Shown in pieces: positions 36,001 through 42,000 of a DNA stretch of 42,329 bases (position 1 is the stretch's first letter; every line of letters starts with the position of its first letter). The stretch comes from Fibrobacterales bacterium (GTDB lineage Bacteria > Fibrobacterota > Fibrobacteria > Fibrobacterales > JAOPTW01), in NCBI GenBank assembly GCA_051532055.1, contig JAOPTX010000079.1:1-42329 (forward strand), read 5' to 3'. The position numbers are program-made.

Positions 36001-39000
36001 TGGAACGCAGGTTCTCATGTTCATTATTACACAATTTGCAGCCGCAGGTGGAGCGGTAGTATTTGGAATTATTCAAGATAAAATTGGGGCACGTATTTCG
36101 TATACTTTAACCCTTGTGCTCTGGGTGATAACTATTACAATGATAGCTGGCGCGGACCAGGTAACCTATTTTCTCAATGGGATTTTCTCAACAGATTGGG
36201 AAACACAAAAAGTGTTTCTGTTTATTGGCTCATTAGCAGGCCTTGGCCTTGGCGCTACTCAGTCTGCGTGTCGGGCAATGGTGGGTCTCTTTGCACCAGA
36301 ATCTAAAGCGGGTGAGTTTTATGGACTGTGGTCAATGGTGGGTAAGGCTTCTGCTATTATTGGATTGATTGCTCTTGGCTTGCTTCAGGCTGCATTCGGA
36401 CTTAAGTATGCGATTCTTATCTGTTCACTCTTTTTTGTGATTGCAATTGTGATAACATTGTTTATCAATGAGGACCGGGGGCGAGCTACTGCTCAATCTC
36501 ACAATGGTGAATAACAACCTAACTTCAACTATTACCTTAAGTTGTGCTGGTTGTATCGCCTATTTCCTAGGGTTGATTCAAAGAATTTATCGGTAACTCC
36601 CTTCAATTTAATTAATTATTGGGAGTTTTTCATACAGACTTATAAACTCTAACTTTTAAAATACGCACTATTTAGTTGCACCAACTCTATATATTTGGCA
36701 AAATAGAGGTGATTGTGACTTTTAAAGTAGTTGACTGCATAGCCAAACTTGAGCTTATGGAGTGCACTTTAATGAAGTAAATGGGGTAGCGCGTGCATAG
36801 AGCTTTTCGAAATAGAACTATACCTCTTGGTGTCGTGATTTGTTTTATTGTTCTTTTGAGCCTTTTTCAAGGATATAGTGGGCAACTCGATAGCCAAGAG
36901 AGTGAAATATCTGAACAGTATGAGCGGATTATTAAGAATGAAATGCTCAAATACTTTAAAGAAGGAACCTTTATTGTTGATGTAAAGGTGGCCTTAAAAG
37001 AACGACTCGTTCCAAAGAAGTATAAAAGGTTACGCACAGAAGATGAAATAGATAAACTTCCAGGACTTCCAGTACTTCCCGCTGAACTGAGAGCAGAGGT
37101 AAAAAGTAACAACAGTGACAGTGTTAAAGTATCGGATTATGATGCCATTTTCGAGGTTAAATATGCTGATGTAACTATCCTTGTTGATTCCTCATACACC
37201 CTAGATGAGTTTGGATTTATTGTAGACCTCGTGATGATGGTTGCAAATTTAGAAGAGATGCGTGGAGACCGAGTTAATATAAGCCAAAAGAAATTCCCTG
37301 ATGAATTATTACGTTCAGGGCATTTACAAGAAAATATCGATCAAGATGCTTTTTTACCTGCTATTGAAGAACCACTTACTGAGAGAGAACGTATTGTTAA
37401 TAGTGTGATAAAGCTACTCCCTATTATTATAGTGAGCGTCCTACTTTTTCTCTTTTTGGTTATTACACTGGGTATGTTACTTAAATATTATCGTTCTAAA
37501 AATGAATTTGAGAATACTGAAAAATTGACTCAAATGATACAACAAATTAGTGATCAATCTAAAGAGGCTATCATAGGAAATGAGGACGATACAATGGAAG
37601 GCGCAGGCTCTGAGGAACGGGTAATAGAGGATCTTGCCTATAAAACCAATCGAATCTCTATACTCAATTCATTTATTGGTAGACCAGAAAAATCCACTGA
37701 AGTACTCAAGGGTTGGATCGAGAAGAGTGCTGAAGAGGGTTTTAATAAAGCCGCTCTTTTAGTTATGATTATTGATGAGAAAGTACTGGATGTTATTAGA
37801 CCATTTATGGTTCAAGCTACTGTTGCAGGAATTGAACTTGAGCTTAAGGTACTCGAAAAGCCCGATGAAGAAAGTGCTCTTTTTGTGATGGCAGAATTTA
37901 AAGAAGATTACAATAAGCGTATTGCCGATGACCATGAAGATAAGGATAACTATGATATATTTAATTTTCTCAAACAGTTGACCAACGATCAGGTCCTTCA
38001 TGTACTAAAAGGTGAAGAGGAGGGGATTATTGGTATTGCACTTGCGCAACTTACTCCTAAGGTTGCTGGGGAGGTATTACAATCTTATGATGGAGAGAAG
38101 CGGTCTAAGTTATTGATTAGTATGGGTAATATCAGTAATATTCCTGTATCCCTGTATAAAGAAGTAGCTGAGCAGTTATCTACAAAAGCACTTGAAGTAA
38201 GTAATATGCGCTCTGTTGCGGCTGATGGTATCGAGAGTATTATTGAGGTTATAGCAAATTTAAGTGTCGATGGCCAATCACAATATATCCACTCTATCTC
38301 TGAAATGGATTTAGAGCTTGCACAGAAAATTAGACGATTCTATGTTACCTTCGAAGATCTTTCTTCGCTCCCTGATGATATTTTATCCAAGGTTCTTCAA
38401 GAGGTTGACCGTGATGCACTCAGTGTAGCGCTTTTACATACTCAAGAAGATTTTATTAATCATATTTTACAACTCTTCCCTGAAAGGATGCAGGCAATGA
38501 TTCAATCGGGAGTCGAGACAAATAGTGATGCTACCCCAGAAACTATTGATATTTCGCGAAAAGAGATATTGCAAAGAGTTCGGAAAGAACTCAAGCAGTT
38601 AGGAGGGCTTCCACAATGAAATGCCTATTGATACTTCTAATGGTTACGGTTTTGGTCAGTGCTAAAAATAAGGTTACTTACCTGAGCCAAGATACAAAAA
38701 GCGAAAAAGAGATAGATGCTGAATACGAGTCCGAGAGTAATACAGGCATGAGTCAGATCTATCATATTATTGATCAGCTAAAAACGTCAGTAGGGGATAT
38801 CCCTCCGTATATTGAACGGATTGCAATTTATCAATTAAAGGTTAAACGCGATGAATTCAACAGTGGGATGGCGCGCTTTATTCGTGGTCACATTGAAGAG
38901 GTTTTTATGCGGAGCGCACGCAAGAAAATGGTAACCGCCCCAGAGCTGAGCAGAGTCCGAATTCTATCAACTGATTCATCTTTTAATATGTCCAGTTCAC

Positions 39001-42000
39001 TACCGACAACTGACGAACTCTGGGATTTGGGTGAGAAGCTTAGAATAGACGGTTTCTTAGAGGGCTCTATTACTCGAACTGAAGAGGGTGATGTGATGCT
39101 GAGTCTCAAAATATTTAAACATAAAACCAATGAACAAGTATGGTCGGTTAATCTCGTGGCAGGGCCTAATAAAGTTGAAGACAACTATCTAGATTATGAA
39201 GTTAATGTGAAAGCAAGTTTCAGTTATTGGCCTATAGAAAAATTTACTCAAGACGCTCGGTCATTTACTGAGGAATTAACTCTTTACGGGTACACTTTTG
39301 ACTTTATGATCAGTGAAGCGACGACGGTTGATCGCTTTTTCTACATGGCACTGTATGCAGGGTTTGGCATGTACAACCCAATGTCGGCTAAAGAAAATGA
39401 TGAAACGTTTAATAAGTTATCAAAAAAATTCCCTATCGATCTCGGATTTGAAATGACCGGTATTATCGTTCCAAAACAAAATAAAGATGAGGGCTATTGG
39501 CTTGGTCTAACAACCGGTGTGAAAACTCTCATTTTTGATAATCTATGGTCGGTTAATGCTGGCTTTAAAAGTCGGCTTACTCCTCACTTTGGAATTGGTG
39601 CTGGCGCAAATATCTGGCCGATTAACACTACCTTTGAGCCAAGTTTACTCGACGGTACAAGTAACTATGAACTTAAAATGGAGATGGTGTCGTATGAAGG
39701 TTATTTACACTACTATTTTTAACGGGTTCATAGTGGGCTCACTCGTATGCCTTTCGGCATGCTCATCATCATCAAAGGGCACTTCGGGGCGTGGTCAGCC
39801 ACAGCCCAGTGAAGAAAAAGAAAAGAGTGAACAACTTACTATCCGCTATTCGAATCAGTCTACCTCTATCAAAATGCAAGTAGACCCATTTGATGAAGAC
39901 CTCTATATCGATATGAGAGGTGGGTTGCATTCAACACAATCTATATCGGCAAATACCAATAGTATTGATACGGTGTATCAGATATCAAAACAACCCGAGC
40001 AGTCTCAGGGTCAACCTCAAGGAGGGCAGAGACCCATACCAAATTCAGAAGTTCAGAAAAATATGCAAAATATGCAGCCACAGAAAATGAATAACAGTGT
40101 GTTGGCCCATATCCGACGAGCACAAGATTATTTTTATAAAAAGCAGTATGAAGACGCTGTTGAGGCAGTGAATCAATCTTTGCAAATTCAAAAAACTGCT
40201 GAAGGCTATGCACTTATAGGGAGTATATATTACATGATGGATGAAATTCCATGGGCCATAACGCAATGGAGAAATGCCTTGGAGCTTAACCCGGATATGA
40301 TTGAGATTCAAAAAATGCTTGAAAAAATTAAGAGGGACCAAGAATGAAATTATCACTTGATACCTTTGTAGGCTCAATTTTTGGTGTTTCACTTCTCGCT
40401 TGGGGGGTATTGAGTGCAACTAAAGATTGGGAGATGTTTTTGAGTCAACCGAGTGCACTCATTGTTTTTGGAGGTTCAGTTACCGCTGCGTTTATTGGAT
40501 TTAGATGGCGATATCTTAAAGCGGCACTTTTTGATATTCTAACAATTTATGCTCAACAAACAATCAACCCAAAAACTCTGTCTCAAGATGTCAAAATGCT
40601 TATAGAGTGGTCTAAGAAAATAAAAGTAGATGGGAAAAAAGGACTTAAAGAGATCATAGATGGGAGTAACGACAACTTTGTTCAGTACACCCTCTCCCTT
40701 GTGAGCACCGGTTACAAACCAGAAGAGGTTCAAGATATGGCGTCGACCAGTATCGAGGAGCACTACTATAGACGCTTGACTGAAACGAATATTCTTAATA
40801 CCATGGCGTCATCAGCTCCAGCCTTCGGAATGGTTGGTACACTCATCGGACTTATTGTAATGCTCGGTCAGATGGAAGATCCTTCAAAAATGGGTCCAGG
40901 TTTATCAATGGCATTACTTACCACGCTTTACGGAGTACTCGTGGCGCGATTTATATTCCAGCCAACCTCGACAAAAGTAAAACAAAAATTAGGAATAAAT
41001 AGATTTCGAGAGTTTCTTATATTAAATGGAATTCTACTGATTATGGAGAAAAAATCACCATTTTACATTCAAGACAAACTCAATTCATATCTTGATCGCA
41101 AATTTCACGAAGATCACGTAGTCGGTGAATAGAGATGTCCCTTCAAAAGCATTCAGGTAATAGGCCTCCCGATATTGATGAACCCGATGAAGGGTGGTTG
41201 AGTACCTATGCTGACATGATAACATTGCTCATGGCATTCTTCTTGGTATTGATTTCAATATCAAAAGTAGACGTTGCTCTTTTTGAACAACTCAAACAGG
41301 GGCTGCAAAAAGAAATCGCAAAAAAAGAGAAGGTCGAAACTCCTCTTGCAAAAATAAAACGGGATCTCGACTCCTTATTAATACAGGAACGTTCTCAAAA
41401 AAAGGTTTCTATCGATCTTGGTCGAAAAGGAATTACCATGCAATTTGCAAGTTCAGCTTTTTATGGACCAGGACGTGCGGATATTGGGCGAGAAGCAAAG
41501 CGTATTATTGATAAAGTTGTAGGGGCGATCAACAACATCACTTACTACCCTTTTCAGATAGATATTGAAGGACATACTGATAATGTTCCGATCAATACGT
41601 TACGATTCCCCTCAAACTGGGAGCTTTCAGTAGCACGAGCAACCACTATTGTCAAATACTGCCTCTCTAAAGGTGTGCCCTCTGATAGGCTCAAGGCTGC
41701 AGGATATGCTGATACTAAACCAATTGTACCTAACCAAACAACAACGGGAAAGAATATTGGTAAAAATCAGGCTATGAATCGGCGTATCGTGATTCGGATT
41801 CATTAGATTTTGTTAAGAATTTAAACAAGCCTCGGCAGCTTCTTTCAATGTTTCAGAAAATGTAGGATGTGCATGTACCGTATGAGCAATATCTGAAATC
41901 GTCATTCCTGCTTTCATGATTATACCCGCTTCTGCGATGAGCTCTGATGCAACAGCACCTACAATATGAATTCCGGCAACACTACCATCTTCATGGGCGA

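What a model noticed while it worked through the whole genome (the two positions that open the first line are those of the whole stretch)
36835..41806. Natural FliF(RBM3 ring)-FliG fusion protein in an operon with its own MotAB stator and an outer-membrane partner: a seco [...]
A conserved five-gene operon (g03609-g03613) encodes a 594-aa protein whose periplasmic N-terminus folds like the ring-building RBM3/beta-collar domain of the flagellar MS-ring protein FliF, followed by one transmembrane helix and a complete cytoplasmic FliG; then a secreted protein with a PelC/LpoB/TolB-N-like domain plus a C-terminal beta-barrel ending in an aromatic residue, a TPR lipoprotein, and a dedicated MotA/MotB pair. 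I read it as a self-contained ion-driven rotor-stator machine separate from the flagellum (which has its own FliF g00455, FliG g00454 and MotAB g01764-65 elsewhere): a one-polypeptide MS-ring/FliG rotor with no export gate, rod or FliM/FliN switch, coupled to the oute [...]
Evidence so far: Pfam: FliG_M and FliG_C at residues 385-584 only. AlphaFold2 model from 31 homologues, mean pLDDT 79: N-terminal alpha-beta-beta-alpha-beta with two 20-residue strands (46-65, 97-117), TM helix from 183, then helical FliG. Foldseek vs PDB: full-length FliG structures E 1.5e-10 to 1e-7 (310-320 aligned columns) and, separately, 16 FliF MS-ring RBM3/collar entries (8z5v, 7d84, 8zdt, 6sd1, 6scn ...) E 1e-4 to 1.3e-3, prob 1.00, TM(target) 0.29-0.55. 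The FliM-binding EHPQR motif of the canonical FliG (KEHPQT in g00454) reads GEEEGI here; the torque-helix Arg is invariant in 31 homologues while the acidic pair is SG. MotB g03613 keeps the channel Asp (TYADMITLL). Operon order fusion - barrel prot [...]
(Added by a program. Inside this text positions count along the whole contig: contig position 1 is position 1 of the stretch shown here. "Call 12" and the like, gene names such as g00115 and contig names such as C1 are that model's own, and its searches are not shown. The text may have been shortened before it was handed on; [...] marks where a part breaks off. The agent that wrote the report below was given it as the finding of a first reader that could run no searches.)

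Follow-up and report, generated by a model that had tools for sequence, protein, structure and literature searches.

The report
Stand-alone FliF-FliG rotor with own stator
Five tightly packed genes encode a natural fusion of the flagellar ring protein FliF and rotor protein FliG, a dedicated MotA/MotB ion motor and two outer-membrane partners: probably an undescribed envelope motor built from flagellar parts, which one flagellum-less relative still keeps.

Summary
Window 36793-41806 (+) carries five translationally coupled genes: a 608-aa signal peptide, FliF RBM3/collar, TM helix, FliF C-tail and full FliG; a 368-aa outer-membrane protein (LpoB/TolB-N/PelC-like domain plus 8-stranded barrel); a TPR lipoprotein; MotA; and MotB.

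The FliF match is not only structural. VIA Z is 12.5-14.6 at rmsd 1.6-1.9 Å, and profile-profile comparison with canonical FliF gives 93.9%, E 1.6e-7. That alignment runs collinearly through TM2 to the FliG-binding tail.

Gene order is identical in 19 of 19 uncut genome loci and 23 of 23 uncut metagenome loci. At least 242 clusters at 50% identity exist.

In Fibrobacterota, 34 of 296 genomes carry it and 103 FlhA-positive genomes lack it. One carrier is a single-contig, 98%-complete genome. It has no FlhA, FliF, rod, flagellin, FliM/N or canonical FliG.

Best reading (0.55): a flagellum-independent, export-gate-less rotor-stator module. Rotation, output and outer-membrane coupling remain inferred. 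Against it, 33 of 34 carriers are flagellated.

Six literature searches found only engineered FliF-FliG fusions. Earlier notes of this scan report the same cassette elsewhere.

The parts
36793..38619 (+). FliF(RBM3)-FliG fusion protein. Residue numbers in this report use the 594-aa form.
   Evidence: ORF. The collection holds the 608-aa form. Pfam finds FliG_M and FliG_C. AF2 model pLDDT 80. Matches to FliF and FliG structures.
36793..36882 (+). Predicted cleavable signal peptide: a basic n-region, a hydrophobic core, then ...YSG|Q. It stands where FliF has TM1.
   Evidence: Read from the sequence. Family members end this segment with A-x-A|Q-type sites. Cleavage is inferred.
36883..37314 (+). 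Periplasmic FliF RBM3 ring-building domain with a beta-collar hairpin (residues 17-160; hairpin 46-117).
   Evidence: VIA Z 12.5-14.6, rmsd 1.6-1.9 Å over about 100 residues, against Salmonella FliF 228-438 and Vibrio FliF 255-452. hhalign against 13 canonical FliF: 93.9%, E 1.6e-7. PF08345 hits in family members. Four-copy prediction: score 0.42 against a best control of 0.19.
37057..37071 (+). LPGLP motif (residues 75-79) in the loop at the far end of the collar hairpin. P82 is also invariant.
   Evidence: L75, P76, G77 and P79 are kept in 49 of 49 full-length members, and L78 in 47 of 49. It lies between strands 46-65 and 97-117 in a low-pLDDT loop. A role as a docking site is inference.
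37414..37482 (+). Single transmembrane helix (residues 194-216), equivalent to FliF TM2.
   Evidence: Hydrophobic run. Helix 183-245 in the model. Aligned with the TM2 region of canonical FliF by hhalign.
37483..37734 (+). Cytoplasmic linker equivalent to the FliF C-terminal tail. It ends in ...VLKGWIEKSAE, which aligns with the FliF end ...ELIRTWLESGE.
   Evidence: hhalign aligns fusion residues 17-300 with residues 246-513 of this genome's 517-aa FliF. A weak PDB profile hit to FliF 465-559, E 0.22.
37732..38586 (+). Complete FliG: N domain about 300-370, M domain 385-457, C domain 487-584. It lacks the EHPQ motif (GEEEGI at 393-398). The N-M linker is about 26 residues shorter than canonical. 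The torque helix is PERMQAMIQSGVE (549-561).
   Evidence: VIA against 8wiw_3: Z 16.4, 286 residues, model 300-592 against FliG 4-323. FliG_C against 1qc7 and 8ucs_H: Z 14.2 and 13.8, rmsd 1.9 and 1.7 Å. Pfam. Alignment with three canonical FliG.
38616..39722 (+). Secreted outer-membrane protein (368 aa): signal peptide, periplasmic LpoB/TolB-N/PelC-like domain (about 45-185), and an OmpA-type 8-stranded barrel (193-368) ending in Phe.
   Evidence: No Pfam or NCBIfam family. AF2 pLDDT 80.5. VIA: OprF-N Z 14.6, OmpA TM Z 14.1; LpoB-C Z 11.9 (rmsd 3.4 Å, 124 residues); PelC Z 8.5. Foldseek. The last residue is F in 42 of 47 full-length members.
39694..40347 (+). TPR lipoprotein (217 aa): lipobox LSAC, a Q/P-rich low-complexity linker, and C-terminal TPR repeats.
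   Evidence: Pfam TPR_1, TPR_2 and TPR_11 at 135-203. Lipobox read from the sequence. A lipobox-like motif was found by a simple pattern in 25 of 46 members, and several of the rest show ...SC or ...NC sites that the pattern misses.
40344..41132 (+). MotA, a flagellar-type stator A subunit (262 aa).
   Evidence: Pfam MotA_ExbB. NCBIfam MotP, PomA and MotA at 126-143 bits, all below their equivalog cut-offs. PDB: MotA chains 8ucs_C and 6ysf_E at E 1.4e-34 over residues 6-251; PomA at 1.2e-25.
41135..41806 (+). MotB (223 aa): TM helix with the channel Asp27, a plug, and an OmpA-like peptidoglycan-binding domain.
   Evidence: Pfam MotB_plug at 16-59 and OmpA at 110-206. NCBIfam MotD at 162 bits, below its cut-off of 283. 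Asp is kept in 43 of 43 members.

Best explanation
The operon encodes a self-contained, ion-driven rotor-stator module derived from the flagellar motor core. It works without a flagellum.

Shown by sequence and model comparison:
- Gene 1 is collinear with the C-terminal half of FliF (RBM3 S-ring/collar domain, TM2, FliG-binding tail) joined end to start to a whole FliG.
- The FliF N-terminal half (TM1, RBM1, RBM2) houses the type III export gate in flagella. Here a signal peptide replaces it.
- Genes 4 and 5 are a flagellar-type MotA/MotB pair with plug, channel Asp and peptidoglycan anchor.

Inferred:
- The RBM3 domains pack side by side into a ring just outside the inner membrane, and each subunit carries its own FliG below the membrane.
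- Peptidoglycan-anchored MotA5B2 units conduct ions and push on the FliG C domain, so the ring turns. There is no FliM/FliN switch (no EHPQ motif), no export gate and no rod.
- The tip of the collar carries an invariant LPGLPxxP motif and faces the outer membrane. There the barrel protein, with its LpoB/PelC-like periplasmic domain, and the TPR lipoprotein either receive the movement or form the bearing or stator scaffold.

The output is unknown.
For: 1. FliF half.
- VIA gives Z 12.5-14.6 at rmsd 1.6-1.9 Å over about 100 residues to FliF RBM3 rings. This is well above the next folds: Ohr/OsmC at Z 9.0 or less, PrgK 8.2, EscJ 8.1.
- hhalign of the family (36 sequences) against 13 canonical Fibrobacterota FliF gives 93.9%, E 1.6e-7 over 239 columns. 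It runs from RBM3 through TM2 to the C-terminal FliG-binding motif.
- PF08345 matches 22 of 36 members at E 1 or better, and the best is above Pfam's cut-off (24.3 against 23.8 bits).
- In six-frame scans of 121 genomes at E 0.01 or better, 12 of the 14 PF08345 matches outside full-length canonical FliF lay in the fusion ORF. The other two were a 181-aa frame at a contig end (G286) and an 80-aa frame with two stops (G187).

2. FliG half. Z is 16.4 over 286 residues against full-length FliG. The C domain superposes on the FliG_C chain of the entry titled 'MotAB stator bound to FliG' (8ucs_H) at 1.7 Å.

3. Stator. MotA is full length and MotA/PomA-like. The MotB Asp is kept in 43 of 43.

4. Conserved unit. 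The gene order is the same in 19 of 20 genome loci (the 20th is cut by its contig end) and in 23 of 31 metagenome loci (the other 8 are cut after 2-4 genes in the same order). The flanks are not conserved.

5. Family size. 242 representatives score E 1e-30 or better, and most of the best 150 are full length.

6. Independence from the flagellum.
- G241 (1.6 Mb, one contig, 98% complete) has no FlhA, YscJ_FliF, rod, flagellin or FliMN_C match. Its only FliG_C and PF08345 matches are the fusion.
- All five of its genes are intact. 44 of the 49 family-conserved residues are kept, and its only MotA-type gene is the operon's.
- 103 FlhA-positive genomes of the phylum lack the cassette.
- This genome has its own fliF-fliG and flagellar motAB elsewhere, and no flagellar gene lies elsewhere in the window.

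7. Self-association. Four copies of residues 20-165 scored 0.42, against a best of three controls of 0.19.
- The mark was reached by 20 of 30 proteins solved as pairs of one chain and by 1 of 23 solved as single chains.
- The runs agree in at least 28% of contacts, and the partner pLDDT is at least 64.
- The contacts run from sheet edges (44-51, 114-116, 150-157) to helix 124-140 of the neighbour, on both sides of a subunit.
- Caveats: my own alignment was used, four copies are unlike the calibration, and FliF rings are solved, so the pass may be from memory.

8. Rotor-stator contact. The residue at the second position of the acidic pair of the FliG torque helix changes together with MotA position 97.
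- G goes with G in 21 Fibrobacterota-type pairs. E goes with R in 21 pairs from low-GC metagenome loci (marine records among them), and again in G241.
- G241 sits with its own family's copies on the quick tree, at SH-aLRT 94 on a long branch.

9. Engineered FliF-FliG fusions of Salmonella and Vibrio assemble rings (abstract starts of PMC6079021 and PMC11481574, in the listings).

10. Contigs of one RNA library that are identical to the window cover parts of the fusion gene and bridge the TPR/MotA junction (40096-40402). DNA carry-over is not excluded.
Against: - 33 of 34 carriers in the phylum have flagellar genes. Among the 163 FlhA-negative genomes only 4 carry the cassette, and 3 of those have FliF and rod genes. 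These counts are dominated by one non-flagellated genus (0 of 101), and kin are not independent.
- The single flagellum-less carrier has a very long branch (2.45, against 0.35-0.69 for its nearest kin). This could mean relaxed constraint.
- In this genome the acidic pair of the torque helix is SG. The MotA positions that align with the charged residues of PomA/MotA vary across the family: K, Q or R at one, and D, E, S or K at the other.
- The protein fails the FliG equivalog model (86 bits against a cut-off of 226.7), and MotA and MotB fail theirs.
- The FliG N-M linker is about 26 residues shorter than canonical, so FliG-FliG packing may differ.
- Nothing shows a ring in vivo, rotation, or contact with the outer-membrane proteins.
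- With no rod or gate, it is unclear what fills or uses the ring's centre.
Confidence: 0.55

Rival explanations
1. It is an accessory of the flagellar system: a second rotor or ring that works at or beside the flagellar basal body, or a specialised rotor that borrows the export gate, rod and switch from the main flagellar loci.
For: - 33 of 34 carriers in Fibrobacterota are flagellated.
- All the parts are flagellar by descent.
- Periplasmic scaffolds with a TolB-N-like fold occur in the Vibrio LPHT ring. Chain 8z5n_5 matches the second protein's domain at Z 8.1. TPR-like scaffold proteins in that ring are my recollection only.
Against: - G241 keeps an intact cassette with no flagellar marker of six tested.
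- 103 FlhA-positive genomes lack it.
- RBM1/RBM2 are absent, so it has no seat for an export gate (PF01514 matches only the canonical FliF).
- The EHPQ FliM-binding motif is absent.
- The cassette has its own stator while the flagellar locus keeps its own MotAB.
- It is never found next to flagellar genes in the window or in the conserved flanks.
Confidence: 0.17
2. It is a non-rotary, Tol-Pal/TonB-like force transducer. MotAB pulls or twists a small FliF-FliG oligomer, and its periplasmic domain tugs on the outer-membrane protein and the TPR lipoprotein. The job would be outer-membrane tethering, envelope remodelling or control of peptidoglycan synthesis.
For: - The parts list parallels Tol-Pal with CpoB/LpoB: an ion-driven 5:2 motor, a single-pass transducer, a partner with an LpoB/TolB-N-like domain (LpoB-C Z 11.9; TolB by Foldseek at E 1e-5), a TPR protein, and an OmpA-like peptidoglycan binder.
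- The torque-helix acidic pair is not conserved.
Against: - The transducer keeps the whole ring-building RBM3/collar at rmsd under 2 Å to FliF rings, and is predicted to pack side by side.
- It keeps a complete FliG with the invariant torque-helix Arg, rather than a TolA/TonB-type TM helix contact.
- MotA is of the flagellar type with the large cytoplasmic domain.
- G241 and this genome keep separate ExbB/TolQ-type genes.
Confidence: 0.18
3. It is a decaying or static relic of a duplicated flagellar core: an assembly platform or a membrane-potential sensor with no mechanical output.
For: - The scores against curated FliG, MotA and MotB models are divergent.
- Cover in the one RNA library laid is low.
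Against: - All five genes are intact with the same order in 42 of 42 uncut loci across deep divergence, down to about 30% identity.
- The channel Asp, torque-helix Arg and collar motif are invariant.
- There are 242 or more diverged clusters.
Confidence: 0.05

Closest known systems
Flagellar motor core: FliF MS-ring, FliG ring and MotA5B2/PomA5B2 stator
   Same: The RBM3/collar fold, TM2 and FliG-binding tail of FliF; all three FliG domains; the torque-helix Arg; and a MotA/MotB pair with plug, channel Asp and peptidoglycan-binding domain.
   Different: - One polypeptide instead of two.
- No TM1, RBM1 or RBM2, so no seat for the export gate.
- No EHPQ motif, a shorter N-M linker, and SG (or SE) at the acidic pair.
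- No rod, hook, filament, FliM/N or export genes in the unit.
- Kept in a genome with no flagellar genes.
Engineered FliF-FliG fusion proteins of Salmonella and Vibrio (PMC6079021, PMC11481574; abstract starts seen in search listings)
   Same: FliF is joined at its C terminus to FliG. Those constructs assemble rings.
   Different: Those are laboratory constructs of full-length FliF. This is a natural gene that lacks the N-terminal half of FliF and sits in its own operon.
Periplasmic scaffold rings of high-torque flagellar motors (Vibrio LPHT ring; H- and T-ring proteins, named from recall)
   Same: A TolB-N/LpoB-like periplasmic domain (8z5n_5, Z 8.1 over 102 residues) and a helical-repeat lipoprotein encoded beside a stator.
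   Different: Here the domain is fused to its own outer-membrane barrel. No sequence-family match was found, and there is no L- or P-ring.
Tol-Pal with CpoB and LpoB
   Same: An ion-driven motor of the same superfamily, a single-pass inner-membrane transducer, an LpoB/TolB-N-like domain, a TPR protein and an OmpA-like peptidoglycan binder.
   Different: The motor is MotAB-type. Coupling is through FliG in the cytoplasm, not through a TolA helix in the membrane. There is no TolB propeller, and separate ExbB/TolQ-type genes exist.
Other non-flagellar uses of MotAB-like motors (Agl-Glt gliding, GldLM/PorLM, Zorya)
   Same: A stator-like ion motor teamed with envelope proteins, TPR proteins and outer-membrane barrels.
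   Different: As I recall, none of these uses FliG or FliF. PADLOC matches only MotB to ZorB models (62.7 bits or less) and finds no ZorA, ZorC or ZorD. The mBio 2025 survey of MotAB homologues (PMC12505986; passages read) groups flagellar stators apart from non-flagellar ones. It mentions FliG once, as the flagellar partner.

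Membership tests
FliG (flagellar rotor/switch protein) | FliG_C and FliG_M domains | tested here: met
   PF01706 at 67.1 bits and PF14841 at 44.4 bits, both above their cut-offs. FliG_C against 1qc7_B: Z 14.2, rmsd 1.9 Å, 89 residues.
FliG (flagellar rotor/switch protein) | FliG_N domain that holds the FliF C-terminal tail | tested here: met
   Pfam FliG_N scores only 19.1 bits, below its cut-off of 25. But the full-length FliG structures align from FliG residues 3-6 on (model 297-302 onward; Z 14.3-16.4).
FliG (flagellar rotor/switch protein) | EHPQR motif of the middle domain (the FliM-binding site; role recalled from the literature) | tested here: not met
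   GEEEGI stands where three canonical Fibrobacterota FliG have KEHPQT. The family consensus is (D/E)E(S/P)xG or DExx(M/V).
FliG (flagellar rotor/switch protein) | Charged torque helix: R281 and D288/D289 in E. coli numbering (residue pairs quoted in PMC12505986; equivalence by alignment) | tested here: inconclusive
   The Arg is kept in 49 of 49. The acidic pair is SG here and SE in the low-GC metagenome clade and in G241, and an acidic residue follows two positions later in most members.
FliG (flagellar rotor/switch protein) | Curated equivalog score (TIGR00207) | tested here: not met
   86 bits against a cut-off of 226.7. It is a FliG-domain paralogue, not the flagellar switch orthologue.
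FliF (MS-ring protein) | RBM3 ring-building domain with beta-collar | tested here: met
   VIA Z 12.5-14.6 at rmsd 1.6-1.9 Å. hhalign 93.9%, E 1.6e-7. PF08345 is above its cut-off in some members, but not reported at E 1 or better for the window's own protein.
FliF (MS-ring protein) | TM2 followed by the C-terminal FliG-binding tail | tested here: met
   The hhalign alignment runs through the TM helix to ...KGWIE, aligned with ...RTWLE at the FliF end.
FliF (MS-ring protein) | N-terminal TM1, RBM1 and RBM2 (PF01514 YscJ_FliF) | tested here: not met
   PF01514 matches only the canonical FliF on contig 7 of this genome. The mature N terminus of the fusion starts about 30 residues before RBM3.
FliF (MS-ring protein) | Assembly into a ring of about 33-34 subunits | not testable with these tools
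   Only side-by-side packing of four copies was predicted: score 0.42 against a best control of 0.19.
Flagellar-type stator MotA/MotB (PomAB, MotPS) | Four-TM MotA with a large cytoplasmic domain, alignable end to end with MotA/PomA | tested here: met
   Residues 6-251 align with MotA chains 8ucs_C and 6ysf_E at E 1.4e-34, and with PomA at 1.2e-25.
Flagellar-type stator MotA/MotB (PomAB, MotPS) | MotB with channel Asp, plug and OmpA-like domain | tested here: met
   PF13677 at 59.8 bits and PF00691 at 58.4 bits. Asp27 is kept in 43 of 43.
Flagellar-type stator MotA/MotB (PomAB, MotPS) | Curated equivalog scores | tested here: not met
   The best MotA-type model scores 143.3 bits against a cut-off of 394. 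The best MotB-type model scores 162.5 against 283.
Flagellar-type stator MotA/MotB (PomAB, MotPS) | Use in a flagellum | tested here: not met
   In G241 the operon's MotA is the only MotA-type gene, and six flagellar marker families are not found.
OmpA-type 8-stranded outer-membrane barrel | Small barrel fold and a C-terminal aromatic residue | tested here: met
   OprF-N at Z 14.6 (rmsd 2.2 Å, 118 residues) and OmpA TM at Z 14.1. Terminal Phe in 42 of 47. No Pfam family matches.
LpoB / TolB_N / PelC fold group | Alpha/beta periplasmic domain of this fold | tested here: met
   LpoB-C at Z 11.9 (rmsd 3.4 Å, 124 residues), GNA1162 at 8.6 and PelC at 8.5. This is fold only; no sequence family matched.
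Tol-Pal system | TolB beta-propeller, TolA, Pal | tested here: inconclusive
   The model shows a barrel, not a propeller, after the TolB-N-like domain. The Foldseek TolB rows have rmsd 22-26 Å. TolA and Pal were not searched for.
Zorya anti-phage system | ZorA plus ZorB with ZorC/D or ZorE | tested here: not met
   Only MotB matches the ZorB models. The other four proteins match nothing.

The most novel reading that the evidence does not exclude
This is an autonomous rotary machine of the cell envelope. A one-protein MS-ring/FliG rotor is spun by its own MotAB, with no secretion system, rod or switch. Its collar tip drives, or turns within, a ring of outer-membrane barrel proteins.

This would show that the torque-generating core of the flagellar motor can exist and be useful apart from type III export. 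The cassette would then be either a derived re-use of that core or a surviving cousin of a pre-flagellar rotor.
Probability: 0.35. Interest if true: 0.92.

Novelty: new variant of a known kind. Interest (0 to 1): 0.78.

Why it matters
Every studied FliF/FliG rotor belongs to a flagellum and is built around a type III export gate. This cassette is conserved and spans several phyla, and it keeps only the ring, rotor and stator, adding outer-membrane partners.

If it turns, it would be a new use of the best-known bacterial rotary motor. It would also give a minimal, genetically compact rotor-stator pair for structural and biophysical work: one rotor gene and no switch.

It also bears on an old question, whether rotation and secretion in the flagellum can be separated. 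The question becomes testable by expressing five genes.

Finally, it puts a flagellar-type stator into a non-flagellar context. The recent survey of MotAB homologues does not describe this (PMC12505986; passages read).

Tried and rejected
- The promoter/terminator scan of 36300-42329 was uninformative: 20 promoter-like sites against 18.5 expected, and no + strand terminator.
- The single-protein scan of genome contigs gave only one true relative. The phylum-wide genome search replaced it.
- Pfam and NCBIfam gave nothing for the 368-aa protein. A word-based homologue search found only 3 clusters, so I built its alignment from the syntenic loci instead.
- I tried to test flagellar genes on the long metagenome contigs that carry the cassette (up to 1.28 Mb). 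Those records are not held, so flagellation of the metagenome-clade carriers is untested here.
- RNA: one metatranscriptome holds 14% of the sampled words. Its contigs leave much of the operon uncovered. That proves nothing either way, and contigs cannot rank expression.
- The careful tree search did not finish in 288 s. I used the quick tree (SH-aLRT only), and G241's placement is on a long branch.
- Zorya was considered and rejected.
- A second complete flagellar system was considered and rejected: this genome has a single FlhA, FliF and FliM.
- ESM Atlas rows are leads only and were not tested: Balneolota, Bdellovibrionota, Bacteroidota, Pseudomonadota, Elusimicrobiota, Myxococcota.
- Six literature searches found no natural FliF-FliG fusion and no FliG in a non-flagellar operon. 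The library lacks most subscription journals.
- I did not search for split or longer forms of the fusion, and I make no claim about them.
- I did not fold the rotor with the outer-membrane protein, the TPR protein or MotA. The one complex job went to self-association.

Full report
**What is there**

On the + strand, window 36793-41806 holds five ORFs with overlapping or abutting ends (junctions).

Pfam and NCBIfam give the following:
- FliG_M (385-457) and FliG_C (487-584) in the first protein.
- Nothing in the second protein.
- TPR repeats in the third.
- MotA_ExbB in the fourth.
- MotB_plug and OmpA in the fifth.

All the curated flagellar equivalog models are matched below their cut-offs. 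FliG scores 86 against 226.7, the best MotA-type model 143 against 394, and the best MotB-type model 162 against 283.

The rest of the 42-kb window has no flagellar or chemotaxis gene. Its neighbours are an MFS transporter, TrpS, DapB and a lipoamide dehydrogenase fragment. The nearest named relative is a Fibrobacterales MAG at 92% identity.

**The first protein is FliF's C-terminal half joined to a whole FliG**

An AF2 model from 36 homologues (pLDDT 80.0) shows four parts. There is an N-terminal helix, then two 20-residue strands (46-65, 97-117). A helix-strand unit follows, then a long membrane helix from residue 183, and then helical FliG.

VIA-align, run on the chains that Foldseek ranked highest, sharpens this:
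- FliF S-ring chains score Z 12.5-14.6 at rmsd 1.6-1.9 Å over about 100 residues. Model 11-155 aligns with Salmonella FliF 228-438.
- The next unrelated folds stop at Z 9.
- FliG aligns from its residues 3-6 to its end (Z up to 16.4, 286 residues, model 300-592).

The match is also present in sequence:
- A profile of the family against 13 canonical Fibrobacterota FliF gives hhalign probability 93.9%, E 1.6e-7, over 239 columns. Fusion residues 17-300 align with residues 246-513 of this genome's 517-aa FliF. This covers RBM3, TM2 and the C-terminal tail, down to ...KGWIE aligned with ...RTWLE.
- Pfam PF08345 (the FliF RBM3 region) matches 22 of 36 members at E 1 or better. One is above the gathering cut-off.
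- In six-frame scans of 121 genomes, 12 of the 14 PF08345 matches outside full-length canonical FliF lie in the fusion ORF.

So the gene is collinear with fliF-fliG, which are adjacent in this genome. It has lost FliF's TM1, RBM1 and RBM2, and a signal-peptide-like N terminus stands in their place.

**How the FliG part differs from the flagellar one**

I aligned it with three canonical FliG of the phylum:
- It lacks the EHPQ motif: GEEEGI stands against KEHPQT.
- It has about 26 fewer residues between the N and M domains.
- It keeps the torque-helix Arg, in 49 of 49 members.
- It has SG at the acidic pair.

The charge pairs R90 with D288/D289 and E98 with R281 are quoted from PMC12505986 (passage). 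The equivalence of positions is by alignment, and partly from my recall.

**The stator**

MotA aligns end to end with solved MotA chains (8ucs_C, 6ysf_E; E 1.4e-34) and with PomA. The MotB channel Asp is invariant in 43 of 43 members. The MotA positions that align with the charged residues of PomA/MotA vary within the family.

One pattern speaks for a real rotor-stator contact. The second position of the FliG acidic pair and MotA position 97 change together:
- G goes with G in the 21 Fibrobacterota-type pairs.
- E goes with R in the 21 pairs from low-GC metagenome loci (marine records among them).
- E goes with R again in G241.

G241's fusion sits with its own family's copies on the quick tree (SH-aLRT 94, long branch). 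That makes at most two events, so the evidence is weak.

**The partners**

The 368-aa protein now folds with confidence (pLDDT 80.5 from 22 syntenic homologues).
- Residues 193-368 form an OmpA-type small barrel. OprF-N scores Z 14.6 and OmpA TM scores Z 14.1.
- Residues 46-184 form an LpoB/TolB-N/PelC-like domain. LpoB-C scores Z 11.9, PelC 8.5, and a chain of the Vibrio LPHT ring 8.1.
- It has a signal peptide, and it ends in Phe in 42 of 47 full-length members.

The third protein has a lipobox (LSAC), a Q/P-rich linker and C-terminal TPRs. The linker is about 200 residues longer in one genus.

**Conservation and spread**

- The order fusion, barrel protein, TPR, MotA, MotB is found in 19 of 20 genome loci. 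The 20th is cut by its contig end.
- It is found in 23 of 31 metagenome loci. The other 8 are cut after 2-4 genes in the same order.
- The flanks are conserved only among close kin.
- A profile search of 1.84 billion representatives finds 242 proteins at E 1e-30 or better. Most of the best 150 are 580-740 aa long and are matched over nearly the whole profile.
- Source names include Fibrobacterota, Balneolaceae, Elusimicrobiota and Gammaproteobacteria MAGs.
- ESM Atlas rows add Bdellovibrionota, Bacteroidota and Myxococcota as untested leads.

**Relation to the flagellum**

This genome is flagellated. It has fliF-fliG on contig 7, and FlhA, FliM and a second MotAB beside hook and rod genes on contig 23.

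In the phylum:
- The periplasmic domain is found in 34 of 296 genomes, in 13 of 70 genera.
- FlhA is found in 133 of 296.
- 30 carriers have FlhA, and 103 FlhA-positive genomes lack the cassette.
- Of the four carriers without an FlhA match, three (66-92% complete) have FliF and rod genes.

The fourth is G241. It is a single-contig 1.6-Mb genome, 98% complete.
- It has no match to FlhA, YscJ_FliF, Flg_bb_rod, Flagellin_N or FliMN_C.
- Its only FliG_C and PF08345 matches are the fusion.
- Its five genes are intact, and 44 of the 49 family-conserved residues are kept.
- The operon's MotA is its only MotA-type gene among five MotA/ExbB-family matches.

The counter-evidence stays. 33 of 34 carriers are flagellated, the non-flagellated part of the sample is mostly one genus (0 of 101), and G241's copy sits on a long branch. 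All these tallies include the unpublished genome G253 as one genome without the cassette.

**Ring formation**

Four copies of residues 20-165 were folded with controls.
- The score was 0.42, against a best of three controls of 0.19. The verdict was 'supports binding'.
- The mark was reached by 20 of 30 proteins solved as pairs of one chain and by 1 of 23 solved as single chains.
- The runs agree in at least 28% of contacts, and the partner pLDDT is at least 64.
- A subunit is touched on both sides. The neighbour's strand edges (44-51, 114-116, 150-157) lie against its helix 124-140. This is the manner of ring-building motifs.

Because FliF rings are solved, the pass may be from memory. Four copies and my own alignment also differ from the calibration.

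An LPGLPxxP motif sits at the far end of the collar hairpin. Five of its six named positions are invariant in 49 of 49 members, and L78 is kept in 47 of 49. That this is the docking site for a partner, possibly the TPR domain, is my inference.

**Expression**

One metatranscriptome, labelled marine, holds contigs identical to the window. They cover parts of the fusion gene (37456-37629, 38069-38271) and bridge the TPR/MotA junction (40096-40402). DNA in the library is not excluded.

**Verdict**

The anatomy, the descent from fliF-fliG plus motAB, the fixed five-gene unit and its presence in one flagellum-less genome are all supported.

The most likely mechanism is a ring of FliF-FliG subunits turned by peptidoglycan-anchored MotAB, without export gate, rod or switch. 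The outer-membrane proteins would serve as load or bearing. I put this at 0.55.

The rivals are a flagellum-linked accessory (0.17), a non-rotary Tol-like transducer (0.18) and a relic (0.05).

Six full-text searches found only engineered FliF-FliG fusions. Earlier notes of this scan describe the same cassette in other genomes and read it the same way. They are unchecked, and they are not independent support.

Noticed in passing
window 3605-5284 (-), with 1834-2805 and 2814-3668 (-): A 559-aa protein with a CsgG-like N-terminal domain and three PEGA domains, followed by two ORFs with no Pfam family. In the Atlas rows, CsgG annotations occur together with LpoB annotations, and LpoB is the fold of the operon's outer-membrane protein domain.
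   Followed up: no
window 18627-21773 (+) and 21942-25469 (+): Two very large ORFs. One is 1048 aa with no Pfam family. The other is 1175 aa with PKD, Big_9 and DUF285 domains. They lie in a stretch of unusually high GC skew (0.17-0.27). They are probably surface proteins.
   Followed up: no
window 9117-14097 (-): Three ORFs whose ends abut or overlap: an sCache-HAMP-GGDEF diguanylate cyclase (9117-10394), a 685-aa ORF with no family (10394-12451) and a 548-aa multi-TPR protein (12451-14097).
   Followed up: no
L063-L069 (genus g25), compared with window 39694-40347: The TPR lipoprotein is 390-450 aa in genus g25 and 203-262 aa elsewhere. The extra length lies before the TPR repeats. If the linker spans the periplasm, its length may track envelope width.
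   Followed up: partly
fusion residues 558-559 (window 38506-38511) and MotA residue 97 (window 40632-40634): There is a coupled change between the FliG torque helix and MotA. The pairs are G with G, or E with R, and the E-with-R state appears both in the low-GC metagenome clade and in G241. This suggests a direct charge contact that has been rewired.
   Followed up: partly
G241:C1:944772-948353 (L106-L108) and G000:C38:43320-44278 (L004, L008): In G241 a cluster of ExbB/TolQ-type genes, including an unusually long frame of about 490 aa, lies 6-13 kb from the cassette. A like pair (499 aa and 213 aa) exists on another contig of the window's genome.
   Followed up: no
window 35000-42329: Of 11 contigs from one metatranscriptome labelled marine, 9 are at least 99% identical to the window, so this organism or a near-identical strain is in that sample. 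The MFS transporter gene upstream of the operon has the deepest cover.
   Followed up: partly
window 37057-37080: The LPGLPxxP motif at the collar tip has five of its six named positions invariant in 49 of 49 members. It sits in a loop that the model cannot place (pLDDT about 55). Its partner is unknown.
   Followed up: partly
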